Shown piece by piece: positions 1-22,560 of a stretch of 64,000 nt of DNA. The translations under genes were made by a program, and so were the position numbers. The notes under the pieces are model-generated. The model was not told where the DNA came from and did no database searches. It was given only the letters and a program-made list of their open reading frames with translations. Source of the DNA: Prorocentrum cordatum (lineage: Eukaryota); assembly GCA_963575745.1 (NCBI GenBank), contig CAUYUJ010000259.1, forward strand, positions 124,001 to 188,000, given 5' to 3'. The number at the start of each line of letters is the position of its first letter. Positions within the stretch are counted from its first letter, which is position 1.

Positions 1-321
1 CCTGGGCGAACCGCTAGACCTCGCGCGCCCTGCGCCGCCAGCGGTCGCCTACCCCACGGAGGTCTACCTGCAGGCGCGTGCAGAGGTGGCTACCCGAGCT
101 GCCGCACGCCGGGCCGAAGCTGCTGGACAGGCAAAAGCCGAACGCCAGTCGAGGGCTGCACTACCAGACCCACCCACACCAGCGCAGCAACCCCCGATTG
201 CTGGCAAGACGTCCTGTGCGGGGAGGGCGCGAATACGCCAGCGCAGCAATCCCCGCTTGATGTGTGCAGTATGTATAGTGCGAGTGGCACATGGGCACCC
301 GTGGCGGGCATGCTCGCACCG

Positions 322-343
322 TCCGCGGCCATTTTGGCTCAAG
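322..343 (+). other. Dinoflagellate spliced-leader relic
   Basis: TCCGCGGCCATTTTGGCTCAAG matches the canonical DCCGTAGCCATTTTGGCTCAAG at 20/22; lies 70 bp upstream of ATG 413. Confidence 0.9.
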
Positions 344-412
344 CGCTGACGTGCGGCTCTCGTTGTGTCCCTGCCGGTCGATCTTGGGCTTCTCTCGGCT
401 CTCGCGATTGCG

Positions 413-1780
413 ATGGATTCCGGCGGCTTCCCCGACGCGCCGCCGGCTCCAGCCACCGTCGGGGGTGGTGCTCTTCGCGGGCCTTTCCCCAAGGCAGCGG
501 CGGCGCCGCGTGGCACGCCGTCGGCAATGGCGGGGCTCACGCCAGACAATCCTCGAGACAACCGGTTTCGGCGGTGACTTGGCTAAGGCGTTGGTGGCGG
601 CCGTTGGCGGGGACTCGGGCCCTGCCGTCGCGGACTTCGTGGCCATCTTGGAGCAGGTCTTGGTCAACGTGCTCAGCCAGCTCGAGGTCGAGGGCATTCC
701 GGCGTCGCCCATCGTCCACGGCCGCGCTGTGCGGGCGATTCGGGCCGTCTTCGACGCGGCGGGGCTGCCGCCGCCCAGCTTGGGCGCGCCAGTGTCCACG
801 GCGGCTGCGGCTCGGCCTTCTGGGGCCCCGCAGGACGAGCCCTCGCCCGCGCCGGCGGCGGGCGACAAGCCGCGGTTCTCGGACATCATCGACCCGGGGG
901 CGGAGGGCGCCTTCAACCACCTTCTCTCAAAGGACGACGTGACGGTGGCGCGCGAGAGGCGCGTCGCGGTCACAGGGGGGCCCCCGCCCGAGCACGCGCG
1001 GCCTTCGGCCGCGCAGATCTCGGGGCTCGCGGCGCTGCTAAAGGCCAAGGCCTCGCCCTATGTCGATTTCGCCGTGTTCGGGACGTTTGGCCGCAGGAGG
1101 GCGAAAGCCGGGCAGTTCGAGGCGCAAGCCTTCGTGGACGGGCGCCTCGAGACGAGGGTGCTGTCGGGCCCCTCGAACTTCGAGGCCTGGCGGTCGTCCT
1201 GGCAGGTCTTGCGCTCGTGCTTGATCTGCCTGGGAGCCGCCCCGTCCGCGGCGTCGGACGCGTGCGAGGATGGCACCCGTCAGCTCTCCATCCTGTGCCC
1301 GTCCAACTGGGGCGTCATCCTCGGGGCCGACGACGCGGTCAGGTCCGAGAAGTGGGGCGCTCTCCTGGAGGGGCACCTCGCATTCAACCCGGATGACGAC
1401 CAGGCGCGGGCGCACGTCACCAGCGCCACCGCCCCCGGCGGCGAGCCGCCGGTTGCCCGGTCGGCCCACCGGTGGTGGATGCGCGTCGGCGCCCCCTGCA
1501 CTCCCCGCCGCGGATGGGGGGGCCAGACGGGCTCTCTGGTCGACCGTCTGGAGGGCGCCCCAGCCGGGACGCTTCCGGACCCCTCAGCCCCGCCGCCCCG
1601 CGCCCAGGCGGGCCGGCAGCGTGGCCCGCGGGGCGGCGGCGGCCAGGCTGGCGGCCAGCAGCGGGCGCAGCCGCCGCCGCAGCGGCAGCCGCAGCAGCAG
1701 GGCCCGGCAAGGCAGGGTTCGAGCGCTGGCGGGGGCGGCGCCCCGGCCGCTGACAAGCCCACCGAGGCGTGCAACCTCTG
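413..1780 (+). pseudogene. Gag-like ORF1 of the retrotransposon, 5' part
   Basis: ATG 413 (MDSGGFPD...) frameshifts near 545 into ORF 291..1805 (ILETTGFGGDLAKAL...PYVDFAVFGTFGRR...GPSNFEAWRSSWQVLRSCLICL...EACNL), which stops matching at the transposon left end. Confidence 0.7.
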
Positions 1781-1995
1781 CTTAGAGATTCTTCGCGCCT
1801 GTTAAGTGTTATAGGGCTGTTAGACATCTTAATATGAGATAACATGAGATATCTGATGTATGTTATAGAGGAAGTTGTAAGACTTATAGCTCGACTTACT
1901 ATCTCAGATATCTCAGTGGTCCACAGCTGGCGTTTCCCCTAAGCGGTGGGCAAGCCGCGTAAATCCGATAAATTTGGCAGCCCGCGTTTCGCCCC

Positions 1996-2107
1996 AGCGG
2001 TCTTCCAACCGCTTTCCAGCGGTCTTCCAACCGCTTTTCGTCTGGGAGGCCATGTTGGTCCACCAAACGCTTGCGAGCTGAAGTGCACCAGCGGTCCCCC
2101 AACCGCT
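1996..2107. promoter_or_regulatory. Cluster of palindromic sites AGCGGT-N6-ACCGCT upstream of cargo gene A
   Basis: Perfect copies at 1996-2013, 2018-2035 and 2090-2107; further copies at 3969, 4020, 5280, 6806, 6863, 8876 and 11074. Function is inferred. Confidence 0.55.
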
Positions 2108-2199
2108 TCTCCTATCCTGTCTCCCCATTGGCATCTCGCCCGCGAGCGCCATTTGGAGCTCAAGCTGTAGTTGTCAGCTGTTTGGGGCCCGCTGCCGCG

Positions 2200-3650
2200 A
2201 TGCAGGGCGATTTGCATGCCCAGATTGAGGCTTCAGTCGCTGTAGTGAACAGCAACCCCATGAGGCGCTCGAGCGCGCAGAAAGACCGTTTGCTGGCACT
2301 CTTCAGGCAGAACCCGACTTCCGTGAGCAGCGCCGTGCCTGCGATCATGCAAGAGCGAGCCTTAGGCAAGTGGGCCGAGGCCGACCACGACGCCCTGGTG
2401 GACGCAGTGAGCGGCATGATGTCGGCGGGTTCCTCGACAGATCGTGGCGGTGAGAATGGCTCGTCCCAGCAAGATTTCCAGAGTTTCGTTCACTTTCTTA
2501 CGGCCTCTCAATGGAAGAAGCTGTGTGATGGGGGCGAAGACATCCTGGTGTTGTTGCGCCGCTTCCTGCAGTCCCTGGGCTGCCGCAACCCTTGCGAGAA
2601 GACGTCCAGAATTGCGACTGTAGCGTTGGCCCTGGTGTCTGACCCTTGGAAAAAAAGTTCGGGCGATGAATGCTGGCATCTGGCAGCCCATGCACGACGC
2701 CACGAAGGGCCACCTGAAGACCCATCTCAGGGGCGTGCCTCCGTTCAAACACTTGCCCAATACGCCCGCTGAGTTAAAGGAGAAGCACCCGCACTTCTAC
2801 AGCGAGTTGTACAGGGATGAAGGTCCGACCGCGCGCCCCTTCACTGCCGTCCAGATCGGCTTCATTAAAAGCGGGATTCGCTGCAGGGGTGCGAAGCAGA
2901 GGGGCGCAGGGCCCAGCGGTGCTGGCGCTGGCCCAATGGTCGCCGTTGCAGGTGGCACTGGGTTCGATCAGTTCGCGAATGTTTTGGGCTGCGCGGTGAA
3001 GCAGGTCATTGACGGCCAGTCCAAAATCCTCGAGATGCTCGCTGGCATCAAGAGCGGCCCGTCGGCCCCCAACCTGTGCAACTTGAAGATCTTCGGCCGG
3101 GATCGTGGTCAGCATGGCCAGCCGCGCGGCAGACTCGGATTGCCCGAACTCGGCGCAGGCGATCTCGGGAACGCGATGTCGGCCGCGCCCCCCTCGGCAA
3201 GAGCCGCCGCCGAGGACGGGGCCGAAGGCGAGGAGGGGGGGGGGGGGGGGGGCAAGGGCGAGCCCGCGGACCAGCCGACGACAGCGCCCCCCACGGCTAC
3301 TCCGGGCCCAAAGGCGCCGAAGGTCAGCGGCAAGGAGGCGATGGAGATTGTCCAGAAGGCCATGGGCTCCCGCAAGAAATCCGACGAGGCCCCCCGCGCG
3401 AAGTCCGACGAGGCCCCTGGCGTGACCATGAAGCGCCCCGCGGCATGCAACAAGAGGCCTGCAGCGCACGACGACGGCAGTAGAAAGAAGGCTTCGTGGA
3501 GCGTCGAGCGGCCCCGCGGCAGGGCCATGGCTCGCGCGGGCCCCAAGGGTGCCTCCGAGAACGTCGGGTTCCGTTTCAAGGACTATGGCGGCCATCGAGG
3601 CGGCTGAGAAGTGGGTGGCCACGAAGAATCGCGAGATGGGCTTTGATTGA
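2200..3650 (+). pseudogene. Transposon cargo gene A: unknown N-terminal domain, KRPAA motifs, possible AP2-like C-terminal DNA-binding domain
   Basis: ATG 2200 (MQGDLHAQ...QDFQSFVHFLTASQW...LGCRNPCEKT), frameshift at the A-run ~2650 into ORF 2666..3607, second shift ~3590 to AIEAAEKWVATKNREMGFD*. Confidence 0.65.
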
Positions 3651-4455
3651 GCTGCGTCGCCCAAGCATGCATCTAGGTGACACTTTTCGGGGCGAGTGCA
3701 CAGAGCTAGAAAGGTTCCATTGTAAATTGAATCGTGATGTGTCTTGGAAGGTGCAAACAACAAATACCACATCATTAGTGTTGCTCCCTCCACTCCCCCA
3801 TCCAACCATTCCCCATAATTCTTGGTTGCGTTATCACGGGCGACCTCCCTGGTGGATCCATGGGGTCCGTTCACGCCTGCGGGGGAAGGGGCGAGGGGCG
3901 GCGACGGCCACCTGCCATCATCTGTTCTATGGGCCCGGCCGCTAATGTCAACGGCCAAGCGTTATGTCAGCGGTCATCCAACTGCTAATGCAGCGCATGG
4001 GTCGGTAAAGCGTTATCTCAGCGGTCATCCAACCGCTAATGCCACGGACGGTCAAGCGCCCTCCTCCCTCCCCCCTCCCTCCTCCCTCCTCCCTCTCTCC
4101 TACCTCCTCCTCCCTCCTCCCTCCTCCCTTCTCCCTCCCTCCTTCCTCCTCCCTCCTCCCTGCCTCCCTCCTCCTCCCTCCCCCCTCCTCCCTCCCCCCC
4201 TCCCTCCTCTCTCCATCATCCTCGTGCTAAGCCTACTCCCCCATTGTTCTGTTTAGGCTCCTTCAGGTCAAAAAATGCCGTGTGAACCCCTGGCCCCAAG
4301 AGGCCCGTCTCGTCAAACAGCGTCGGGGTAAATCCTGCCCAGACGCACGAACTTGCCATTGCGCTGAGCCCCCTCCTCCTCGCCAATCTCATCTGTCATA
4401 TTTTGCTCGAGCTTGGCCTCTTTTGGCGCCTTGCGCAAGCGACCCATCGCCTGCA

Positions 4456-4919
4456 ATGGGACGCCTTGGCGACGCCGTTGCCCAATCGGACGCCCACTTC
4501 GAGGCGTTCCAGGAGCTCTGCGCAGCTTGGCTACCAGGCGGCGCCCACTATCAGGAGCCTGGCTTGCCAGTTCAGGGCGCGCCCGCTGCTTCGAACGAGG
4601 TCGACAGCGCGCAGCGCGGGACCATCATTATCCCCATGGATGGTTCGGGCCCTTCGGCAGCTCCGGCTCCAAGCCCTTTGGCAGCTCCAGCTCCAGCTAC
4701 AAGCGCGGGATCAGCTGCAAGTTCAGACCCTTCGGCGTCCACGTCGGCTTCGCGCAAGCGCAGCGTCTCTGAGGCCGAGCTGAACGCTGGGGCAACAGCG
4801 GCGGGCGCAATCAGGAGCACTTCAAGGAGTGGCACAAGCAGTTCTACAAGGCCAAGTGCGAGGGCAGACTGCCAGAGTTTCACCAGCAGCACGGTTCCAG
4901 GCCTGTGCCGCCGAAGTAG
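4456..4919 (+). pseudogene. Transposon cargo gene B: small protein of unknown function
   Basis: ATG 4456 (MGRLGDAVAQSDAHFEAFQELCAAW...), low-complexity linker, frameshift ~4790 to GNSGGRNQEHFKEWHKQFYKAKCEGRLPEFHQQHGSRPVPPK*. Confidence 0.6.
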
Positions 4920-5394
4920 CGCGACGCCGCGTGGCGCCGCTGAGTTGGGCCGCAGTGCGCTCGGCTGCCCCGACAGGTCCGCTGAAGGCGCGACGGGTTT
5001 GAAACAACCAGCGTCGACCCAAACTCTTCGGGAAGGAGGGGCCGATGGGATTGAGCGGGGTCTGGGCGTCTGGGGGCCTAGGGGGCGAAGCTGCCGAGGG
5101 GGGCCAGGGGCCACGGAATCGAGCGGATGCGACAGGGGGGGCGGGTGCGGGGGGGGCAAAGGGGTGGCGTTTAGGTCGGGGGAGGGGGGCGGGGGCGGGG
5201 GGGGGGGGGCGAGGGGCGGCAAACAAAAACGATTTCCCCGAAACTGGACCAAAGGTCAATGTGCGCCCCCGCACGTATTAGCGGTCTGCCAACTGCTGGG
5301 GCACCTTCGTTTCTCGGTTGCCATTCGAGCGTGTAGGCGCTTTGGCTCGAGACACCCGCTTGCCCGCTCATTCTTTTCAAATCGAGCTCGCCGC

Positions 5395-6201
5395 GTGGCC
5401 GACGACGATCGCAGCCGCGAGGGGTGGGCGGCTGGGGGTACCTGGTTCTATTGCAAAGAATGCCCGATGGCCGAGCAATGCTCCAAGAGGGCTTGGTCTA
5501 GCGCAAAGGTCTGGGGCTGGACAATGGGGGGGTGCACGGACAGACTCGAGGCCCACTTGGCGCAATCTGGTCTCCGCATGGGTGAGATCCACTCGCAGCT
5601 CAGGCTGGAGAACCTCATCGAGGAAGCAGAGTACGTCGAGGTTTCTATTGCGCAGACGGAGGCCGACGCTCACGCCAAGGAGCTGAAAGAGTGGCTGCTG
5701 CAGAAGAAGCAGAAGTAGAAGACCTCTGATGACGCCCCACGTGTCGCCATTCCGAAGACGCTCGCACCAACGACACCGCCGCGCATGCAGGAGCCTATCG
5801 TGGTAGACCCACCAGGCACCGAACAGCCGAAGAAGCGCCTTTCTGTCGTCCCGAAGCCACCACCTGGGCCTCATCGTGCTGAGGTTGCCCAGCCTGCGCA
5901 CGCCGCGTGCGACCAGCAAGACGCACTGGCGCTGCCGCAATCATCGTCGGGACCGAGCGGCGCTGCGACCACCCCGCAGCTTCGGGCCAGGCTGTCCCGC
6001 GGCGACCCCAACTGCGCCATCGTCATTCGCTCGGTCGAGCTCCAGGCTGTGATCGACGCGGCGAGGCGCTCGAGCGCCGCAGCTAAGTCTGCTCAGCGCA
6101 TTTGCGAGCAAGCAGCGCGGTTCTTTGCTTCTGAAGCCAACGTTCAGGATCAGAGCGTGGTTGACGTAGAGGCCAGGATGCCCGTCGCTTTCGGTCTTTA
6201 G
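5395..6201 (+). pseudogene. Transposon cargo gene C: Cys/His (Zn-binding-like) N-terminus and Ala-rich helical C-terminus
   Basis: FYCKECPMAEQCSKRAW...EAHLAQSGL, stop at 5716-5718, continuing in ORF 5785..6201 (ELQAVIDAARRSSAAAKSAQRICEQAARFFASEA); start appears as GTG. Confidence 0.6.
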
Positions 6202-6323
6202 ATTGCGCGGGGCCTCGTCGGGGCGGGCCAGACCGCCGCTTGCAACGTTCAGTGGCACACTTGCGCCGACATCGCGCTGCGGACGAGCAAACCAAAAACA
6301 TCATCGCCATCATCGCCGTGGTC

Positions 6324-6590
6324 CCGGTACATATCGATACATCTCGATGCGCCGTCGATACGCGTCCCGGTGCACCGCCGATACACCGCCGATGCGCGAC
6401 CGATGCGTCGCCGATACACCACCGATACATGCCGATACACGCCGATACGCGCCGATACACGCATCGGCGCGCATCGGCGTGTATCGGGCGTGTATCGGGC
6501 GTGTATCGAAACATGTATCGAGATGCACCGGTACCTGTATCGACCCTGTATCGACCCTGTATCGAAGCGTATCGAACCCTATCGGCTCGT
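6324..6590. repeat. CGAT-rich palindromic repeat between cargo genes C and D
   Basis: Runs of GCCGATAC/GTATCGG; inverted repeat 6324-6342 / 6513-6531. Confidence 0.7.
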
Positions 6591-6970
6591 ACCGCTCAGT
6601 TCTGGCTTGGGGCCTCCGTCCCGCTGGTTGGGGGTTTCATGTTGGATGGTTTTGCGTCCCTCGATTTTATATCCCATGTTTCTGAGGACGCTCATCTTCG
6701 CTTCTGGCGTGTCAAAGTTGACCTTCGGCCTGCCCTTGCAGGCGACGTTCTATCTATATATCCTTCCTTATGCTTGGGGGGGGGGGCTCCTCTTGCTCGG
6801 CCCCAAGCGGTCTTCCAACCGCTCCCATCGCCAACATTGCGAATCTATATTTCCCGACTCCAAGCGGTCCGCCAACCGCTACACAGAGGACCGCGGAGAC
6901 CAGAGTGCCCGCTGCATATTCAGCTGGCTCTGCAGCGCCGCGAACAGCCTCGGCCTTCCGCGTCGCTCGC

Positions 6971-8446
6971 ATGAAGGGGGCTGCCGCGCTCTTCGGCGGC
7001 AAGGAAGGGCTCGCGGCGGCGCGGCAGCAGAAGCGGGGCGCAGACGCAGCCGCCGCTGCAGATAAGGCGGCGCAGAAGAAGGCGAAACTTGCTGCGACAA
7101 GAGAGGGCACCAAGAGGCTGAATAAGCAGGCCCGAGAGGCGATCGCCGAGGTCTTCGCCAAGATTCCCGAGCCAGGAGATGAGGCGCATCCAACTGCCGA
7201 GCCCGAGGGTGGAGCTGACAGCGTAGCAAGTGGTGTCAAGGCGGAACAGGTCGTTGAGGACGAGGGCTTGCACACGGGTGGCGCGCCGCCCCCCACGCTG
7301 GCACGCGATCCTGATGTCAAGGCCGATTTCGCCGAAGTCACGATGGGGTTGGTGACGGACACCAGGTGCATGCGTTGCTGCAAGGTGGTAAACACGCTGA
7401 AGGCGACCCAGAAGACGAAGACCAAATGGATGTGCTTCTCGTGCGGAGCAAGGGGCACGAAGTTGTTCCGCATGTACGGCAGCTGGCCCTGCTCGGAGTT
7501 CCAGGGGCTCCCACAGTCTGAACAAAAGGCCTTTTGGGGTGCTCCTGTAGAGAACGACTCCGACGCAGCACTCGAGAAGCTCGTGGTGGGGAGCATCGCC
7601 AAGTCCATCGCTGACAAGGAGACGGACGTGCACGAGGGAGGTTTCCAGCCCCTGTCGCACTGGGAGAAAAAAGGGTACGACGTGGAGATGATCCAGAACA
7701 ACGCCCCGAAGCACATGCAAGAGTGGCGCAGCCAGCTTGGATAGACCTACAACGTCGCCGTTCACAAACAGAGCAAGGGCAATATTTTCGAGACTGTGCG
7801 CACCCAGATTCTACAGAAGAGAACCGACGTGGCCATGGCCAAGGGCAGCGGCTCCCCGCGGCCATCTTTCTTGGCGCCTGGAGGTATCACGGGCTCGAAC
7901 CTCACAAACGTCGGCGCGAGTGCAGTCAAGGGGATCGAGACGGAGAAGGGCGACGCTGGGGAGAGAGGCAAGAAGGACAATAATAACAAGAAACGTAAAT
8001 CTTCTTCGAGCTCGTCGGGCTCGAGCGCCAAGAAGGCCAATCAGAAGAGGAGGGAAGCCAAAAAAAGTAAAGCAGGAGGAGAAGGAGCGCATCAAAGCAG
8101 AGAAACTCGAGAAGTCCACCGGGGACAAGGCCACGAGAAGCAACCACTCATGCTCCAAAAAATGATTCAGAAAGCTAGCGCAGTGCAAGTCTCGTTGGAT
8201 CGTGACCTCGTGGATTCGTTCCTCAAAGAAGTCCCGAGCGTCGTGAAGGCTGCTGCGGAAAAGGCCTACAAAGAGATCAGAGCGCTGGTGGAGAAGGCGA
8301 CGGATAACCTCGGGAGCGAGTCGCCTGAAGCTTGGGAGGATGACTTAGTGGATACGTTTCCCACGAAGGTTCCACGGTGGGTCGAAGCCGCTCAGTTGCT
8401 GGCAGTCCAGCTTAGCGCTGTCAAGAAGGTGCCAGAGTCGATGTAG
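6971..8446 (+). pseudogene. Transposon cargo gene D: CxxC...CxxC Zn-ribbon-like protein with Lys-rich and helical C-terminus
   Basis: ATG 6971; RCMRCC...WMCFSCG...YGSWP...GGFQPLSHWEKKGYD; premature stop at 7742-7744, frameshifts, continuing into ORF 7796..8446. Confidence 0.65.
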
Positions 8447-9061
8447 AGCTGCCGCCTCTTTTGCCCGAATCGGGCACAATGCCGGCCGATGGGGTCACGC
8501 ATAGCCCGAGCTATGGGTGAGACGGGCCTGGCGCGCTAACTCTTGAGGACCGCCGCATGGGGAGGCGCATCTATCACCTAACGTCGTGCGCTTCTGACGG
8601 AAAAACAAATCGTTGCATCGCCTGTCCAAGGTGAGACCTCGGCGAGCCGCGAGCCCTGGAGGCGCTGGCGCCGTCGCCATTAAGCATGCGATCGCACGTG
8701 ACGTTTATAATGCGCCCCACATTCTGACCTCCTCCATCCTACTCCTTGAACCCCGTTCATCCTTCTCCCCCTCCCCCGTTCCTCTTCCTCCTCCGCCTCC
8801 CTGTTCCGGAACTATTGATGCTCGGTTGTCCCCCCCCCTCCATCCGCCTCCTACCACCGGGCCCCCCTTCCTCCAAGCGGTTAGCCGTCCGCTAGCGCAC
8901 CGCGCATTTTGCGAGCGCGCACCTCGGAGGCTCATGTCACGGCGAGCGGGGCCGCCTTCATCGCCGCCCTATCTCCCCCACCCCCTCTGCCCCTTAATTT
9001 CTTCATTGGCATTTTGCCAGGCTTGCGTGCCGTAGGGTTTGGGCTCAGGCAGGCTCGCCCG

Positions 9062-11069
9062 ATGTTGGCCCAAGCCGAGAAGAGGAATATTTTGGTTACA
9101 CTCGAGAGCGGTGTCTCATATAAGGCACATCGCCGCGTCACGAAGCGCCTGGCCGCCGATCCTGATGGGGCCGCGGATGTCCTCGACCCTGCTTCGATTG
9201 AGAGGGCGCTGGAGGAAGAATATGGCCCGCTGAGACAGAATATTGAGCTTTCGACGCATGACGCCAAAACAAAGACCCATGGCACATTTACGTGGGGAGT
9301 TGCACGCTGCGACAAGATAATTCCCCATTATTTGCCATCAAACGCGTTCGCCCCGTTCGCGTTGCAAGCCCTGAAACAATGCGGCAACAGCTGCGACAAC
9401 CCTTGGCATTTGGTATTGTACTGCGACGAGCTGTTCCCAGGTGCTGCCAAACAAATCAATAACTCGAGGAAGACGCAAGCTTATTACATCAATGTCCTCG
9501 GGTTGCCCAGCGCTTTACAGTTTCACAGGGAGGCGTGGATCCCGATGGGGTTCCTGCGTTCTCCAGTTGGAAAGGATGTGGCGGGCGGTTGGTCGACGAT
9601 TGCTGCGAAGCTGTTGGAGCGGATGTTTCTGGGGCCTCTGAGCATCCGCGATGCTGGCATCACGTTGCAATTACCAGGCTGCGCACCGAGGGTGCAGTTC
9701 TTCGAGATGCATGCCACCATCGGTGATTCGCCAGCGCTGCAGCAAATTTGGGGCACCTTTGGATGCAACGCGAATGTGCCATGCACCCTGGGTTGTCTGA
9801 ATTTGGTGTCGCGTTCACCAGAGATTGTTGTGAATGACGCATCTGGCATCCTAGTGGATATTCTTGCGCAGACCGTTCTCGCTTTATTCGGGCAACAAAC
9901 GAGGACGTGTGGGAGAAGTTCGACATGCTTGCAGCGGCCAAACCCACGACTGGCAAGACTGCGTTCCAACGAATGGAAACGGCGGCTGGGATACACTGCG
10001 TGGAGACAAGCGTGCTGGGCAACGCCGCCCTTCGACGGTACATGCGCCCAGCAGACCAGGCAATGTGACCCCACGCATGTACTTGTTTCAAATGGTGTTG
10101 TGAATTCATGATGTGTACGATATGTTCTCGCATTGCGGTCTCGCCCGTTCTTATGCGAGTATGCGCGCCGTTTCAACGGCCAATTGGAAAGTCCCGAAGC
10201 AGTTCTCGACAGTCGATTTTTCTCGACCTTTCGACGCATACCATCAGACAGCTTCTTACGACGGTGATGGCGCATTCAAATGCCAAGCGAGTGAGATGCT
10301 GAGCGCTGTGCCCTTGATTCGGTATTATGTTGACAGCACTCTTGCGCGATACCCATCACTGAATTTGCAGGTGTCTTCGTTTCGCGCTGTCCACGATCTT
10401 CTTACATTGACGATGCAATGCAAGGCACTCGGCAATGATAGGGTCGATCCTGTCGAGATCGTCCGAGCTGTCAGCAGGCACATGCTCGCTTTTCAAGCTG
10501 CGTATGGGGCTGACAAGCTCAAGCCGAAGCACCATCAATAATTGCACGTCGCCGACAATGCCAGGAAGAATGGTGGCATATTCGATTGCTTCACACAAGA
10601 GCGCAAAGGTGGTTCTGTCAAGCGTGCTGCGGGGCACATCGAATTCGGAGGCAGGTTTGAGCGCAGTGCATGGTTCCGCGTTTGGCACGAGGAGCTTCGA
10701 TCTTTATCTGTGCCCCACCTTTGGTTCAATAATCTGGTGGGCAAGCAAGAATTTTGCTCTTATCTGGATTGTAATGTGGCCCGTGGTGTTTCCTGGAACC
10801 ATGTGCAATGCATGGTCGGCGACATCATCATCGACGACGCTGGGGCGATGGCGTTGATAGTCGCAGCGTGCTGCGCCGCTGACGGGCGGTACTCGCTCCT
10901 TGGCCCTTGTCTCGTCGATGGCGTGCGGGAGACCAGCACGGCCACGAGGTGGCGGCTCGCCAAAGAAGGCGGCCCACAATTGTTTCCTCTGCGTGACGGT
11001 GCCTTGATCAGGCACGCTGCGATGTGGAGCTTTGAAGATATTTCACACGTGCTGGTTATTGAACGGTAA
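9062..11069 (+). pseudogene. DDE transposase, CACTA/Mirage/Chapaev (CMC)-like, inactivated
   Basis: LVLYCDE (first D), IGDSPAL (second D), PCTLGC, DPTH (DxMH-like), KPKHHQ*LH, FTQERK (E): the motif order of CMC/Transib-type transposases. Frameshifts near 9865 and 10065, stops ending at 10111 and 10541. Confidence 0.75.
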
Positions 11070-11405
11070 AAAGAGCGGTCGACCTACCGCTGGGGGGTGG
11101 GAGGGTGGGCACCAGGGCCACTGAGATATATGAGATATTAGCATATATATATATAGCTATATATATATACATAGATCAGATCAACCGACAAGAGTAATAT
11201 ACGTGTGTCACCTACATGCACTCATGATAAGCGGAATAAGCTCATACATTACACCATGTGGGCTTATATCTACGTATACAGCAAATACCACATATTAGGC
11301 TTAAGCTGGCATTTGATGTGGGATCATGGGACATATAGGCCAATATATATATATATATATGCTTTACCAAGCTTGCTTCTCCTACAACCACGCAGAATCT
11401 CTAAG

Positions 11406-11507
11406 TGGAGCAACGAGTCCACCGGATGCAGGGCGCCGTGCACGCGGGGCCGCCGGCGCGTCTGCCGCGCCTGCGGCGGCCAGCATCGGGCCGTCGACCA
11501 GCATTGA
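11406..11507 (+). pseudogene. Gag-like ORF1, 3' part (zinc-finger tail)
   Basis: Removing 1781-11405 and one TG gives in-frame EACNL-WSNESTGCRAPCTRGRRRVCRACGGQHRAVDQH*, a Cys/His-rich finger. Confidence 0.85.
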
Positions 11508-11739
11508 GAGGGGCGCGGGCCCGAGGCCACGGGGGCTGCGCCCCGGGCCCGAGCGCCTCCCTTGCGGCGCCAGCCGCGCCGCCCTTCGCGCACGTCGCCC
11601 CCGCGGCGACGCCGCTCCCGTCGGGGCTGGGCTCGCCGCTCGCCGATCCCCCAGGGGGGCGAGGACGACGCGGCGGTGGCACTGCTGGCGCGCACCGCCT
11701 CCGGCCGCGCGCATCGGCATGTCCTCCGCGGTCGGAGTA

Positions 11740-13091
11740 TGCCGCGTGCCAAGCGGGTCTGCGAAACCCAGGGAACCTGTGACGAGCGTGGCCTGGCCTC
11801 TGGTCCACGATGGCGCCGATCGCGGATCTCATAGCTGCGCGCCGTCGGAGGGGGCCCTTGCTTCAGGGGTTTGCCGGTGCGTGCGGCGTCTCGCCTAAGC
11901 GCCCGCCGCCGCCGGCGGAATGCCAGCGCTGCCGCTGCGCCACGCGCTCGCCGGGCACTTGGGCATCGGTGCGGCGGCGTCGGAGCGGCGCCACCCCGCC
12001 TCGACGTGGCGGCCAGAGATCGCGCGCGGTGCAGCGGCAGGCGGGGGGCCCTGACCGGGCCATCGCGGACTGGCTACTGGAGGGCGCGCCGATGGGGACC
12101 AAGCGGGACCCCCCCCCGGCGGGCTTTTTTCCAGCGGCGGTCTCAGAGGCGCCCATCGACCTGGACGCGCTCCTCGAGCGCGCGGCCGACCTGGGAAGCC
12201 ACCCGTCTTTCTACGGGCGGCGCGGCCAGGATCGGCTGCCAGGCGTCGAGCAGCTGCAGAGCTTGGTCAACCAGGGTTTTCGGGATCCTCTTCGAGGACC
12301 GAGCGGCGGCGGAAGCTTTCTAGTCCACCGCCGTCTTCCCGGCGCCCTTCGGCAACATCGCGCGGGCGAAGCCCGACGGCGCGACCGAGCGCCGTATCAT
12401 CCTGGATCTGAAGGCGAACCACGTGAAGTCGGCGGGGACCCTTGCCGAGCGCCAGGTACTGCCGGCTATCATCGACCACGCTTTAGACGTCGCCCTGCTC
12501 TCCTTCGGGGCTCAGGAGGGCGTCGCGTCCTGGACGCTGGTGCTGGACTTCGCGGACGCCTTCATGTCTGTGCCGCTGCGCCCCGACGAGCAGCCGCTCA
12601 ACTGCGCGCACGTCGGGCACGCGCTGCGGAGGGACAGGCCGCTGGCGCACCCGCAGGAGGCGCGCGAGGGGCGATCCGTGGTCTGGCGGGTTTTGGGTTT
12701 CCGGCGGCAAGCCTGGCCCCGTCGTGTTCGGGCGCGTGGCGTCCTTCGCCGCGCGCGCCGCGCCGCGCAGGCCCTGCTCCGGCCATTCGCGCGGTCGGGA
12801 GTGGGCCGCGCTGCCGCTGCCGCTGGGCGCCTGCAGCTCTACGTCGACGACCGGGGTCTCGCCGTTGCGGGCGCGCCACCAGCGGCGCAACTGGCGATCG
12901 ACCTCGTGCTCACCTGGTGGCTCCTCCTCGGGGTGCCGCTCGCCTGGAAGAAGGGCGCGCTCTACGCGCGCGAGCACCAGTGGATCGGGGCCATGTTCAT
13001 TCCCTGCTCGCCAGGCGTGGTACACGTCATGTTGCCCAACAAGTTCTTGGCTGATCTCTTCGAGCTCCTCAGGCCCTTCGCGGCAGGGTCA
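11740..13091 (+). pseudogene. Reverse transcriptase (pol) of the retrotransposon, frameshifted
   Basis: GLRNP...IADWLLEGAPMG...GFFP, then LVLDFADAFMSVPL (~12538), WRVLGF, YVDD at 12840-12851, WIGAMF; spread over several frames and ending at the N gap. Confidence 0.85.
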
Positions 13092-13191: not shown

Positions 13192-13900
13192 GCGGAGGGG
13201 GCAGCGCGCTGGGCTGCTGAGGAGAGGGAGGTGGGGTTTGGGGGGGGGCGACGACGACGCCGAAATAAAGTAGTCGGGCCGGAGGGGGCGGTGCGCTGGG
13301 GTGCTGGGGAGCGACGCATAGCGACGCATGTCGGCAGAACGCCGAAATAAAGTGGTCGGGGCGGAGGGGGCTGCTGAGGAGAGGGAGGTGGGGTTTGGGG
13401 GGGGGCGACGACGACGCCGAAATAAAGTAGTCGGGCCGGAGGGGGCGGTGCGCTGGGGTGCTGGGGAGCGACGCATAGCGACGCATGTCGGCAGAACGCC
13501 GAAATAAAGTGGTCGGGGCGGAGGGGGCAGCGCGCTGGGCTGCCTAGGAGAAGAAGAGGGGGGGGGGAGGGGCGACGACGCCGAAATAAAGTCGTCGGGG
13601 CGGAGGGGGCGGTTCGCTGCGGTGGAGCGACGCATGGCGACACATACCGACACGCATCGACATATAGAGACATGTATCGACACACACACATATCGACGCA
13701 CAGCGACACACAGCGACACATGGCGACGCACACATGGAGACGCATAGCGACACACACCGACACACACACACACACATACATCGACACATGTAGCGGCACA
13801 TGAGGGGCACAAGGCACACAGCGACACATATAGCGACACGTGAAGGGCACAAAGCAGCTGGGGGGGAGCGACGACGGCGCCGAAATAAAGTGGTCGGAGC
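13192..13900. repeat. Tandem repeat (GCCGAAATAAAGT-containing ~75-83-bp units) plus CA-rich tract
   Basis: Motif at about 13259, 13341, 13416, 13498, 13580 and 13878. Confidence 0.85.
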
Positions 13901-18200: not shown

Positions 18201-18248
18201 CCGTAGCCCCGTAACCATTTTGGCTCAAGGAGTCCGTCTTGACTCAAG
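18201..18248 (+). other. Tandem spliced-leader relics at the LINE 5' end
   Basis: CCGTAGCC, then CCGTAACCATTTTGGCTCAAG (20/21 to the SL), then a degenerate GTCCGTCTTGACTCAAG. Confidence 0.9.
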
Positions 18249-18392: not shown

Positions 18393-19580
18393 ATGATGTC
18401 TCCCACACCACCTCCGAAGAGTGGGAATACCCGCATGGCTGGCACTCCTGTCGGAAGTCTCGTGAAGGACCCATGGGGACATATGAGGGAGGACAAGAAA
18501 TCTCGGATTGGACATGGTCCTCATTCCCCCCTTGCTCCTCTTCTCGGCGAGGAACGCCCAGGACACCGCGAGCAGCGGGAGGGCTACGTCCCGATGCCCG
18601 AGGATGATCCCGAAGACGAGCTGATCGAGGCGCCGGCCCGCAAGCCGAACTTCGACCAGCAGAACGACGTGACCATGGCTGGCATCGCTAGCCTCCTGCA
18701 TGAACAGCTGTTCCCTGTAATGTCAGCGATCAAGAGCCTGCGCGCAGAACCCGGCAAGTTCGATGCCAAGGTCACGAGCATCGGAGAGACGCTGGCTGGC
18801 CGCGTAGACCACGTGGAGACTGCCATTTTCGATGTCGAAGCGCGGGCGGAGAAGCTGGAGAACATGCACGAGCTGCTGAAGGGTGAGCCGACCTACGCCC
18901 CCCCAGGAGCTTGACACCATGATTTAGGACTATATCAGGGAAGCCGTGACGCAGGAGAGCACGCAGCATACTCCAGTCTGCGCGCAATCCGCGGGCGACC
19001 CGAGCGCAGAGACACGCTCAGTGACCATGGTCGTCGGCAACATTTCCTGCCTCGACACCCTTTTGAAGGCCGAGGAGTGGTTGCAGGAGAAGCTGACGTC
19101 CCTGAAAGCCCCCATCCTGACCAAGACCTACACGAAAGGGGATTGCGTTGGAGTGCTGTTCGCGGAGTTCTGGAACTTTGTGGAGAGGAACGCCGCCGTG
19201 GACGTCTCGAGGTGGACTGTATTGCAATCGGGTGGGAAATGCGCGCGGGCCAACCAGGACCGCCCTAGGAATTACTGTTTTGGATACAGCGCCTATTCAA
19301 AAAAGGCATGGGACATTCCATTCACAGCGTCCGTCAACGGTTCTGCTCTTTACGCGGTGGCAGTGGGCGGCGAGCTCGCACTGATTGCGCATGTGTTCCC
19401 TGGTCGCGTGACCCGCCAGCGGCGCGTGGGGTGGGCTGGGCGGGAGGAGCTTCGACAAAGCCCCGAACTCGTGAATCTCCTGGGCAGGTCGAACCACTTG
19501 GTCGCAAAGGCAGCGGCCGGCATGAGGGGTTTGAAGGGCCGCGTCAAGGGCTCGCCGAACGGGGCCGCAGGGCGCCATCC
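18393..19580 (+). pseudogene. LINE ORF1 (coiled-coil-like region followed by a globular domain)
   Basis: ORF 18384..18914 (VTSIGETLAGRVDHVETAIFDVEARAEKLE) and ORF 18946.. (TMVVGNIS...KAEEWLQEKL...KGD...LFAEF), directly upstream of the endonuclease. Confidence 0.65.
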
Positions 19581-19755
19581 AGAGTGGGAAATAACAGACA
19601 CAATTATCTTATTCGCAGTCGGCCATACTGCTCCTATATATCGATTGAGAATTCACGAGTTCATTCAAGGCGCGACCAAAGCACGGCAAGGCAACGCCAG
19701 CACTGGGCGAGGAATGGTTGGTTTCCGAGGAGGGTGCTCGCAATCTAGCGCAGTG

Positions 19756-22560
19756 GATATCGTTATCGGTTCGCAGAATGTCGAGGGCATGGCGGGGGCG
19801 GCGGATGATAAATTGCATAGCTATACTGAGAAGCTGGGCAACGACGAGCTCATCTAAGAGACTCACAAGCACGAGTCCTTTTATTATACGACCGAACGTA
19901 AGTTGTTTGGTATTTCTTTCTGGGAGCCCTGGCTCCGATGAGACTGCTGGAGTTGGTTTTCTCGCGTCGCCGCGGGCTCGCAGGAGCGCTACTGGAGTCA
20001 ATCTGATGGGCGAGAGAATTTCGCACGCGAAGCTTCGTTCTCGCGGCGGAAAGGTGCCGATCTTCAGCGCGCGCGCCCCTCATAAGGGGAAGCTGGGCCA
20101 TGATGGGCAAGCCTTTTTGCGATCAGTTGGCAATATTCTTGCTGGCACTTCCAGACATGGACATGCCGTGGCGCTGGGGGGCCCCGCCGCTAGGCCCCGC
20201 GGGCAATTCGGAGGGGAGGGGTCGATTCTGGGAGGCCGCGTCTTCGGAGACCCGCGCACTCCGCGCAACCCTCTATCCAACCCAAGCCTGCTCGTGGAGT
20301 TATGCCAGAGAGAGGGGCCGGCTGTCACCAACGCGTTCTTCGACCATTCCGCGGATTACCAGATCATGTGCTAGAATGCGGGGCCCCATCCAGGATCCGG
20401 CTGTGCCGCGACATTCTGGTCGCGCCGATTTGTTTTTCATGCGACGCGGGCTGCGTGAATCTGGTGGCAGACATGTTGGGCAGCCGGGAGTATGCACTTG
20501 CTTCGCATCACTTTCTGTCACAATTCCGCGCGCGCATAGAGATTCCGAAATCGAAGCGCGAGAAGGGCTCGAAACGGGACCAGTCAGCAATGGCCAGCAC
20601 TGCAGGCCGACATTTGTTCGTTGATACTCTCACCAACCATGTGCCCGCATGGTGCCAGCACCAGTCCCTGGACAGCTTGCGCGATGCAGTGGCCAATGCT
20701 TTCGCTGCTACCGCAGAATGCCTCCCGCGAGAGGCGGAACGAAGAAAGCAACCGCGGGTGAGCAGCGCCACGATGGAGCTCATCACCAGTCGGAACGAGG
20801 CGAGACGACACGTGGATTCAGCGAAGGAAACACGTTTTCGCGGAAATATCGGAGCACCCATCAAGATGGACACGGAGCACTGGTCGCACGGACTGTTGGA
20901 GAACGGCGACTGGGACCAGGCGCGCAAGCTCTGGAAGCTCTGCGGCGCCACCCAAGGCGATTGCGGAGCCTGCGCAGCCAAGAAGTTGATAGAGACGAGC
21001 TGGCCCAGACGCTCGCCGAGAATTTCGCGACAGTGCAGTGGGCCGTGCGGCCGGTCACTGCCGCGGACGATCCCGAACCTATGGGGCCCCAGCTACCAGC
21101 GCAGGCATGCCCGATTACCCAGGCGGAAGTGCGCGCGGCAGCGCGCGCGCTGAAACGGAATCGCGCGGTCGGCAATGGCGGCGCCCCAGCTGGGTTTTCG
21201 AAATCTGCAGCTCAGACACGCCAGCGCGCGAGTGGGCCGCTCTGCGTTGCAATCGGTGTTGGGCGGAAGCGTATGTGCCCGACGCCTGGCGCGAGGCGAT
21301 TGTCGCGGCTATCTTCAGGAAAGGCGACGTCGCCGAGCGCGAGAGTTACAGGTCGATTTCACTCTTACCCATCTGGCGCAAGCTCTGCGCCCCGAAATTG
21401 CTTGCACGCTTGAAGAGCGCGGGTGCCGAGGACCGGATTCGGGGAACGCAGTTCGGACTCAGATCTGGTAGCGGAACGGCCGACGCACTGTTCGTCGCAC
21501 GGCGGCTGATCGAGGACACCGTGGACACAGCGTCTGGGAGGCTGCTTCTTCTCGCACTCGAATGGGCTAAAGCATTCGACAGCGCGTCGCCAGATAGCCT
21601 CCTGCTGGCGTTGATCCGCGCCGGCATCCCTGTGCACTTCGCCGCCGCTGTGAAGGAAATCTACCGCAACAGGAGCCTCCGCGTCCGGGAAGCTGGCTCC
21701 ACTTCCGAATCTTGGCCGCAGGCGTTCGCCATGTCGCAGGGGTGCCCATTCTCATTTGTTGTTCTCGATCGCGGCGGCGGTCTTCGTGCACGACGCGAGG
21801 CAGAGCTTTGCTGGTCACGGGATGTTGCAATCCAATTCAATTCCGTTTAGCGAGTTCATGCGCGCGCCCTTGTAGTCGGAGCAGAATAAGAGTTCGTCTA
21901 CCAGCTGATGGAGAGCGTGCGCGTGGCCAGGAGGAACTATGGATTGGGGTTCAATTGGGGCAGTGTCGCGGTCCTGTCCGCGGGGTGCGAGACGCATATT
22001 GCCAGACCGCGCGAGTCAACAATTCCGCAGAGTGGCAGCGTGATCTACCTGGGCGGGCTATTGAACGCCGACGGCGGCAGCGGCCCCGCGCTGAGCAGAG
22101 GGATCGGCATTGCACGCAGGCAATTCCATAGTTTGTGCAAAATTTGGAAGCAAGCGAAGCGTTCACTTTCCAAGAAGGCCTTGGATTTCCAGCCTTGCGT
22201 CGTATCTGGCCTGATGCGTTGCTTGCGCACTCTGTGGCTGAACCAAGCAGAACTCAGAAAACTGGATGCTTTCCAAGCGCGCTGCCGCCGCAGAGTGGCT
22301 GGCGTAGCGCGCCGGTTTGCCAGCCGCGTTTCGAATGATGCCGTCTTGGCCCAGTGCAGCAATCAGACATGCAGCAGCCAGTAAGCATGCCGGCAGCTTG
22401 TGCTGGTGGGTAAGGCGGCCCATTTGCCAGACGACAGCGCCGTCCGACGCTGCAGTTTCGCCCCTGGGTCATTCTCGCTTTCCCGCGTGGGATGTCGCCG
22501 AAACGCGGCCGGCCGAAGAAACCGCGGAAGCCCAATGCGCGCGCCGCGACTTGCAAGGCA
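19756..22560 (+). pseudogene. LINE ORF2: APE endonuclease plus reverse transcriptase, multiple frameshifts and stops
   Basis: IGSQNVEG, I*ETH, AGVGFL, IFSARAPH, VTNAFF, SHHFL; RT: VPDAWREAIVAAIFRKGD, YRSISLL, QFGLRSG, AKAFDS, SQGCP, YLGGLL, KLDAFQARC. The YADD region is not recognisable. Confidence 0.88.

What the first reader, a model, noticed from the sequence alone, without database searches (positions are those of the whole stretch)
1942..11091. Palindrome AGCGGT-N6-ACCGCT marks every intergenic region of the transposon
Seen: 18-bp sites (consensus AGCGGTCNNCCAACCGCT) at 1996, 2018, 2090 (before A; degenerate at 1942), 3969 and 4020 (before B), 5280 (before C), 6806 and 6863 (before D), 8876 (before the transposase) and 11074 (just after its stop). 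The 6-nt spacing is constant and I found no complete site inside the ORFs or elsewhere in the window. Inference: an operator-like site for a dimeric protein coordinating an element-encoded regulon, or recombination sites delimiting gene cassettes. Defined promoter elements are poorly known in dinoflagellates.
Basis: partly seen in the sequence, partly recalled or inferred. Interest (0 to 1): 0.85.

Follow-up and report, generated by a model that had tools for sequence, protein, structure and literature searches.

The report
Conserved palindrome flanking dinoflagellate transposon genes
A five-gene jumping element in dinoflagellate-like DNA carries the same 18-letter mirror-image word in front of each gene and after its last gene, two distant relatives carry that word before and after their jumping-enzyme gene too, and it looks like a docking site for a protein that keeps the element switched on, though no such binding has been shown.

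Summary
In detail: 10 AGCGGT-N6-ACCGCT sites (chance mean 0.24), all with a 6-nt spacer, all non-coding, all inside one 9.6-kb decayed DNA transposon (1776-11410; inverted ends, 4-bp duplication CAAC). Its transposase family folds like RAG1/Transib (CMCT clade). New evidence: two metagenome relatives with 45-46% transposase identity carry 6 and 11 perfect sites, clustered before the transposase and just after its stop; two relatives at 22-27% carry none. Over 27 sites the arms are almost invariant, the spacer length is fixed, and the stem does not extend, unlike bacterial REP-like hairpins. That fits a site for a dimeric protein, not a hairpin or cassette recombination site; a duplication in one relative breaks away from the sites. 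Cargo A ends in a beta-beta-beta-alpha domain whose best named structural match is an ApiAP2 domain (Z 6.9, middling; no Pfam hit), a candidate reader. Best reading: a clade-specific operator system working like Arabidopsis VANDAL/VANC or Spm/TnpA, in a lineage with almost no defined promoter elements. Binding, reader and effect are inferred, not shown.

The parts
1772..1775 (+). Left copy of 4-bp target-site duplication CAAC
   Evidence: removing one copy puts the host frame ...PTEACN | ESTGCRAPC... in register
1776..1802 (+). Left terminal inverted repeat (starts CTCTGCTTAGAGAT)
   Evidence: I19, 27 nt, 78%; the same end, as CCCTGCTTAGAGAT, closes L011
1803..1922 (.). AT-rich subterminal region with TGAGATA/TATCTCA words and an inner inverted repeat (1897-1922 with 11115-11140)
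   Evidence: (I14)
1942..1959 (+). Degenerate site
1996..2107 (+). Three sites (1996, 2018, 2090) before cargo A
2148..2164 (+). Spliced-leader-like word ending 57 nt after the last site
   Evidence: 0 of 1000 shuffles reach the score
2200..3650 (+). Cargo A, broken by two frameshifts (near 2660 and 3595); intact relatives P0189/P0191
3485..3647 (+). C-terminal AP2-like domain of cargo A (split by a frameshift here); candidate reader of the sites
   Evidence: relative's domain folds beta-beta-beta-alpha; no Pfam hit
3969..4037 (+). Two sites (3969, 4020) in a 51-nt direct repeat before cargo B
   Evidence: D18
4275..4985 (+). Cargo B, heavily broken, limits approximate, no family found
5280..5297 (+). 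Site before cargo C; spliced-leader-like word ends 54 nt after it (5351)
   Evidence: 4 of 1000 shuffles
5380..6201 (+). Cargo C, internal stop at 5716-5718, Cys/His-rich N-terminus, no family found
6806..6880 (+). Two sites (6806, 6863) before cargo D
6971..8446 (+). Cargo D, internal stop at 7742-7744; CxxC...CxxC zinc-ribbon-like part; homologue upstream of the transposase in L011
   Evidence: 42% over 180 aa; sub-threshold zinc-ribbon hits on the L011 homologue
8876..8893 (+). Site before the transposase (one arm mismatch)
9062..11069 (+). RAG1/Transib-fold DDE transposase (CMCT clade), two frameshifts and one internal stop
11074..11091 (+). Site 4 nt after the transposase stop; also present after the stop in L010 (1 site) and L011 (3 sites)
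11384..11410 (-). Right terminal inverted repeat
   Evidence: (I19)
11411..11414 (+). Right copy of target-site duplication CAAC

Best explanation
The palindrome is a double-stranded DNA binding site for a dimeric protein, specific to one subclade of dinoflagellate CMCT (RAG1-fold) transposons. Shown: two half-sites C-N-ACCGCT face each other at a fixed distance (centres 12 bp apart), sit only in non-coding DNA, in clusters 70-240 nt before each start codon and right after the last gene, and are kept across elements whose transposases differ at over half their residues. Inferred: bound clusters keep each gene's promoter open or active against host silencing, each gene being transcribed from a portable module of site cluster, about 30-35 nt, spliced-leader-like word, start codon, and the terminal site marks the element's right flank. 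It would work like VANDAL/VANC or Spm/TnpA without being a member of either.
For: Conservation: L010 6 and L011 11 perfect sites, 0 in 500 Markov shuffles each; the three motif-bearing elements lie on three sub-branches of one 17-row clade (SH-like 100), the two without it outside. Sequence rather than structure is kept: 3 changes in 324 arm positions, no compensatory change, spacer 6 in 27 of 27, inner pair 7/12 complementary in 2 of 20 distinct sites, outer pair in 2 of 27. Lone half-sites not enriched. Sites multiply as short tandem repeats (22, 25-26, 32 and 51 nt units), as VANC targets do (PMC5735166, passages). Last site to spliced-leader-like 3' end is 57, 54 and 51 nt in three independent genes. 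In L011 the whole module was duplicated in front of a new short frame. The ends carry a different word (GAGAT core), a separate candidate for the transposase. Cargo A: fold, nearest named structure PfSIP2 AP2 6sy0 (Z 6.9, rmsd 2.6, 58 aligned), language-model lead to an AP2-bearing cluster (0.87, 15% of members).
Against: No binding, expression or methylation data. The AP2 call is soft: no Pfam hit, no sequence match to solved AP2 chains, Foldseek found nothing at E<=0.001, Z under 8 is common by chance, dsRBD-like folds follow closely (Z 5.8), and the model is single-sequence. Cargo A is not shown to be linked to the motif in any relative (L010 and L011 do not reach that far left). Only 3 motif-bearing and 2 motif-lacking elements could be compared. 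The fixed spacing fails for the window's transposase (+156) and no significant leader-like word was found for B, D or L010. The motif is unchanged across the clade, whereas VANC and TnpA motifs diverge between families. CpG ratios near the sites show no protection. The post-stop site is not explained by promoter function alone.
Confidence: 0.55

Rival explanations
1. The site is read by a host dimeric factor that the element has co-opted as promoter or boundary element; cargo proteins do other things.
For: Invariance across 45% transposase divergence and apparently different hosts fits a slowly changing host protein. No element protein is shown to bind.
Against: No full site in the other 54 kb of the window, including before leader-like words at 323, 18209 and 44385; absent from L013 and L014.
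Confidence: 0.2
2. The sites are transposition enhancers: an accessory protein (TnpA-like) or the transposase binds them to bring the ends together; they are intergenic only because coding DNA cannot hold them.
For: A site follows the transposase stop in 3 of 3 elements and tripled there in L011; sites 1942 and 11074 lie at similar distances inside the inner inverted repeat. TnpA is required for Spm transposition (bioRxiv 10.64898/2026.08.24.746577, section 3).
Against: Most sites are internal and close to start codons; long non-coding stretches (3651-3968, 6202-6805, 8447-8875) lack them; all point the same way instead of mirroring at the two ends.
Confidence: 0.13
3. The word acts as a small RNA hairpin (6-bp stem, 6-nt loop) in the precursor RNA, guiding trans-splicing or 3' processing between co-directional genes.
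For: Uniform orientation, position about 50 nt before a leader-like acceptor, presence after the last gene; the two C-to-T arm changes would give G-U pairs. ApiAP2-fold proteins occur in an RNA machine (PMC11742926, passages).
Against: No compensatory change in 27 sites; stem does not extend (2 of 20 inner, 2 of 27 outer pairs), whereas bacterial REP-like hits with the same core do (48 and 51 of 67). The C-to-T changes are also at a CpG.
Confidence: 0.08
4. The sites are recombination sites that delimit exchangeable gene cassettes.
For: Inverted arms around an asymmetric 6-nt core, all in one orientation, one cluster per gene.
Against: Cores differ within an element (7 or more versions in the window); arms are only 6-8 nt; clusters of 2-5 sites 4-50 nt apart; the L011 duplication (1801-2030 / 2299-2610) does not break at a site; D-transposase order is kept; no recombinase family found in the cargo.
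Confidence: 0.03

Closest known systems
VANDAL transposons and VANC anti-silencing proteins of Arabidopsis (PMC5735166, passages)
   Same: Multi-gene DNA transposon; short element-specific motif in intergenic and terminal non-coding regions; motif accumulates in tandem repeats.
   Different: VANDAL is Mu-like, this element is RAG1-fold CMCT; VANC motifs are 8-9 nt without spacer and differ between families, this one is a spaced palindrome fixed across a deep clade; no VANC-like protein detected; binding and demethylation untested here.
En/Spm TnpA and its binding motifs (bioRxiv 10.64898/2026.08.24.746577, abstract and section 3 parts 1-2 of 3)
   Same: Same transposase clade (CMC/CMCT); an accessory protein reads clustered, family-specific motifs and activates the element.
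   Different: TnpA binds at the termini and uses tandem helix-turn-helix motifs; TnpA-like proteins are said to be restricted to flowering plants. Here sites precede every gene and the candidate reader is AP2-like.
[quoted passage not shown]
   Same: RAG1/Transib fold, conserved D, D, E with Cys pair and H(3)H, inverted ends, 4-bp duplication.
   Different: Ends are CTC..GAG / CCC..GGG rather than CA..TG; C(3)C in this subclade; no Pfam family; four cargo genes; not placed against named superfamilies in a tree.
AP2/ApiAP2 DNA-binding domains (6sy0; PMC4117751, passages)
   Same: Three strands then a helix; AP2 domains are often tied to mobile elements and can dimerise on DNA.
   Different: Below all sequence thresholds; single C-terminal domain behind an unknown helical region.
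Relict DinoSL retrogenes (PMC5585692, passages)
   Same: Leader-like words 10-50 nt before start codons of A, C, the transposase and two L011 genes.
   Different: Ordinary relicts have no conserved upstream palindrome at a set distance.

Membership tests
CMCT clade | DDE triad with RAG1/Transib-like fold | tested here: met
   D126 invariant, D226 and E518 at least 90% in 100 sequences; model of relative P0004 (pLDDT 94) matches RAG1 at E 3.3e-8, Transib at 3.3e-3
CMCT clade | C(2)C and H(3-4)H between second D and E | tested here: met
   C245/C249, H496/H500; C(2)C in most of the family, C(3)C in the window and its nearest relatives
CMCT clade | 2-5 bp target duplication | tested here: met
   4-bp CAAC, one copy only
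CMCT clade | 5'-CA..TG-3' termini (most cases) | tested here: not met
   CTC..GAG here..GGG in L011; the source says 'in most cases'
VANDAL/VANC system | Motif confined to non-coding intergenic and terminal regions of the element | tested here: met
   10 of 10 window sites and 17 of 17 exact sites in L010/L011
VANDAL/VANC system | Motif accumulates by tandem repeats | tested here: met
VANDAL/VANC system | Mu-like transposase | tested here: not met
   RAG1-fold transposase
VANDAL/VANC system | Element-encoded protein binds the motif and removes silencing marks | not testable with these tools
   needs binding and methylome data
Spm TnpA system | Motifs concentrated at the termini | tested here: not met
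   6 of 10 window sites are internal
Spm TnpA system | Accessory protein with tandem HTH domain | tested here: inconclusive
   no family hit for any cargo; only one cargo domain was folded
AP2 domain (cargo A C-terminus) | Three-stranded sheet followed by one helix | tested here: met
   E12-18, E23-29, E35-41, H48-65; best model pLDDT 77, single sequence
AP2 domain (cargo A C-terminus) | Structural match to solved AP2 domains | tested here: inconclusive
   6sy0 Z 6.9, rmsd 2.6, 58 aligned; tied with three Toxoplasma mitoribosome chains whose identity was not verified; dsRBD-like rows at Z 5.8
AP2 domain (cargo A C-terminus) | Pfam PF00847 score | tested here: not met
   0 families at E<=10
Site-specific cassette recombination (tyrosine-recombinase type; features recalled) | Identical core between partner sites | tested here: not met
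   cores vary within each element
Site-specific cassette recombination (tyrosine-recombinase type; features recalled) | Rearrangement breakpoints at the sites | tested here: not met
   one duplication examined
Bacterial REP hairpins (label recalled) | Stem extending beyond the core | tested here: not met
   2 of 20 and 2 of 27 against 48 and 51 of 67

The most novel reading that the evidence does not exclude
These transposons run their own transcription system inside the dinoflagellate nucleus: an element-encoded AP2-like dimer binds the palindrome cluster, transcription starts about 30-35 nt downstream at a genome-encoded spliced-leader mimic, and the module is copied in front of newly captured genes. 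That would be a first defined factor-and-site pair able to drive gene-specific transcription in a dinoflagellate, and a ready-made expression tool for a group that is hard to engineer.
Probability: 0.2. Interest if true: 0.9.

Novelty: new variant of a known kind. Interest (0 to 1): 0.68.

Why it matters
Dinoflagellates lack a TATA box, have few sequence-specific factors, and no upstream element has been firmly established in the passages read (PMC11453091; PMC5029490). They silence transposons with unusual marks (5hmU; PMC11572971). A sharply defined, deeply conserved 18-bp site with a candidate cognate protein makes gene-specific transcription and anti-silencing directly testable in this lineage, and suggests that the VANC/TnpA strategy arose again outside plants. 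I found no description of this motif or family in nine full-text searches (listings only), which miss most subscription journals and repeat databases.

Tried and rejected
No whole genome is held, so genome-wide enrichment and copy comparison were not possible. Sequencing-run search: no RNA holder listed; one DNA run held 0.26 of the words; no read or contig layout was obtained, so this is no evidence. Rfam: 9 sub-threshold miRNA-type hits, all on the repeat at 6348-6589, none on the sites. Viral contigs: 9 single matches of the 16-base consensus, 2 tandem matches that are coding-type tandem repeats, no transposase or cargo A relative. Prokaryote genomes: 32 tandem matches, mostly REP-like hairpins, none near an element-like gene. 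Of 170 candidate stretches in the metagenome scan 5 were relatives; L012 has almost no flank and is uninformative. Cargo D had no relative of 451-2000 aa. Pfam and PHROGs gave nothing significant for any cargo or the transposase. Foldseek on the cargo A domain gave nothing at E<=0.001; plant AP2 structures were not among the listed rows. CpG ratios were flat. I considered the inner inverted repeat (1897-1922 / 11115-11140) as the true end; rejected because it has no direct target duplication and L011 shares the outer end. A recalled F-box likeness of cargo B got no Pfam support. The tree used 58 rows (45 of the 100 in alignment A1, 8 more proteins, 5 DNA-derived rows), FastTree only. No complex prediction was run. 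No supplementary files were opened; supplements of the cited papers could bear on family naming.
Full report
Observation. Only the 6-nt spacer gives a cluster, a matrix built from the sites finds no comparable match elsewhere, and 1942 is a weak degenerate copy. All 10 are outside the five reading-frame spans and share one orientation. Lone half-sites occur at background rate inside the element (4 in 9.6 kb against 28 in 54 kb; list), so what is enriched is the spaced pair.

The element. A 27-nt inverted repeat (1776-1802, 11384-11410) is flanked by CAAC on both sides, and the interrupted host frame reads on across it. The flanks look like a retroelement (weak reverse-transcriptase hit, E 0.004). 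Inside are four cargo frames and a transposase, all on the + strand and all broken, so this copy is dead. Near-perfect spliced-leader words at 323 and 18209 (leader sequence as in PMC5585692) point to a dinoflagellate host; earlier notes of this scan say Prorocentrum, which I did not check. The transposase has intact relatives at 69% identity and 3308 relatives among 50%-identity representatives. A model of relative P0004 (pLDDT 94) matches RAG1 (E 3.3e-8), BbRAG1L and Transib; the D, D, E, Cys pair and H(3)H are conserved, as described for the CMCT clade (PMC12730594, passages). The termini are not the usual CA..TG.

Relatives keep the motif. One metagenome scan returned 5 relatives from 170 candidate stretches. 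L010 (46% identity) has five perfect sites in the 175 nt before the transposase leader region and one about 20 nt after the stop. L011 (45%) has 3 + 5 sites upstream and 3 after the stop. L012 has almost no flank. L013 (27%) and L014 (22%) have none, with 840 and 1537 nt of upstream DNA available. L011 also carries a cargo D homologue upstream (42% over 180 aa) and the same right end. In a FastTree tree of 58 rows the window, L010 and L011 fall on three sub-branches of one 17-row clade (support 100), L013 and L014 outside. With 3 against 2 elements this shows conservation within a clade, not co-evolution.

What kind of signal. Over 27 sites (20 distinct per element; L011's are partly duplicates) the arms differ at 3 of 324 positions, the spacer is always 6 nt, position 11 is C in 25, position 12 is A or T in 26, and position 8 is G in 17 (16 of 17 in the two relatives), giving a half-site C-N-ACCGCT. 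Positions 7 and 12 pair in 2 of 20 and the first outer positions in 2 of 27. Bacterial loci that carry the same core in tandem (32 loci) are REP-like hairpins whose stems extend (48 and 51 of 67 sites), a useful contrast. Fixed letters, fixed distance and no covariation are what a dimeric DNA-binding protein leaves (inference from general knowledge). Cassette recombination is disfavoured: cores vary, and the duplication in L011 (1801-2030 / 2299-2610) starts about 70 nt before the first site and ends at the ATG. That duplication put the complete module in front of a new 97-codon frame. The last site lies 57, 54 and 51 nt before the end of a significant leader-like word for A, C and the L011 genes; the window's transposase has 156 nt, and B, D and L010 have no significant match.

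Candidate reader. Cargo A has intact relatives P0189-P0191. The last 69 residues of P0189 fold into three strands and a helix. Against 48,161 chains the top four rows are three Toxoplasma mitoribosome chains and the Plasmodium SIP2 AP2 domain (Z 6.9, rmsd 2.6, 58 aligned); that ribosome contains four ApiAP2-domain proteins (PMC11742926, passages), but I did not verify that these chains are those. A language-model search independently listed a cluster with 15% AP2 members at 0.87, a lead only. Against this: no Pfam, PDB-sequence or Foldseek support, and Z under 8 is common. AP2 domains are often tied to mobile elements and can dimerise (PMC4117751, passages). No relative locus reaches far enough to show cargo A together with the motif.

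How it most likely works. Shown: position, conservation, geometry, tandem growth. Inferred (0.55): an element-made dimer binds the clusters and keeps each gene and the element's flank active, as VANC does on motifs in intergenic and terminal regions of VANDAL (PMC5735166) and TnpA on clustered motifs of Spm (bioRxiv 10.64898/2026.08.24.746577). Rivals: co-opted host factor (0.2), transposition enhancer (0.13), RNA hairpin (0.08), cassette recombination (0.03). It is not a VANC or TnpA member: wrong transposase for the first, wrong motif layout for the second.

Novelty. Nine full-text searches (listings only) showed no account of the motif or of this family; subscription journals and repeat databases were not covered. 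Earlier unchecked notes of this scan report other RAG1-fold elements of the same genome with a different private palindrome; if right, element-specific words are a recurring theme in this genome, which fits the reading but is not evidence for it. Verdict: real, conserved, undescribed as far as searched; a new variant of a known kind of system; interest 0.68.

Noticed in passing
L017-L048 (prokaryote genomes): The same AGCGGT-N6-ACCGCT core forms paired REP-like hairpins in several bacterial groups (for example Paludibacter, Verrucomicrobia, Poribacteria records). Probably coincidence, since the search pattern forced the match; no control pattern was run.
   Followed up: partly
window 291-1775 and 11415-13050: The transposon sits in the Cys/His-rich end of a gag-like frame of a retroelement (weak RVT_1 hit at 12423-13028); that frame is itself preceded by a near-perfect spliced-leader word at 323-343.
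   Followed up: partly
window 6300-6600: Palindromic array of 10-11-nt CCGATACA-type units between cargo C and D; similar low-complexity arrays at about 13620-13840. Likely a later repeat insertion.
   Followed up: no
L011 1801-2610: Tandem duplication of the upstream module; the first copy heads a 97-codon frame with no family hit, a possible newly captured cargo.
   Followed up: partly
P0004 residues about 575-670; window 10750-11069: The transposase ends in a beta-rich domain; the fold search lists a BAH domain at E 0.11, a possible chromatin-reader-like part.
   Followed up: no
window 18209-18229 and 18946-21850: Near-perfect spliced-leader word (1 mismatch) upstream of LINE-like frames (likeness recalled, not tested); no palindrome before it.
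   Followed up: no
P0001-P0191: Many intact transposase and cargo A relatives lie on contigs only slightly longer than one gene (1.8-2.9 kb), which would fit separate transcripts per gene, but the nature of these contigs is not given.
   Followed up: no
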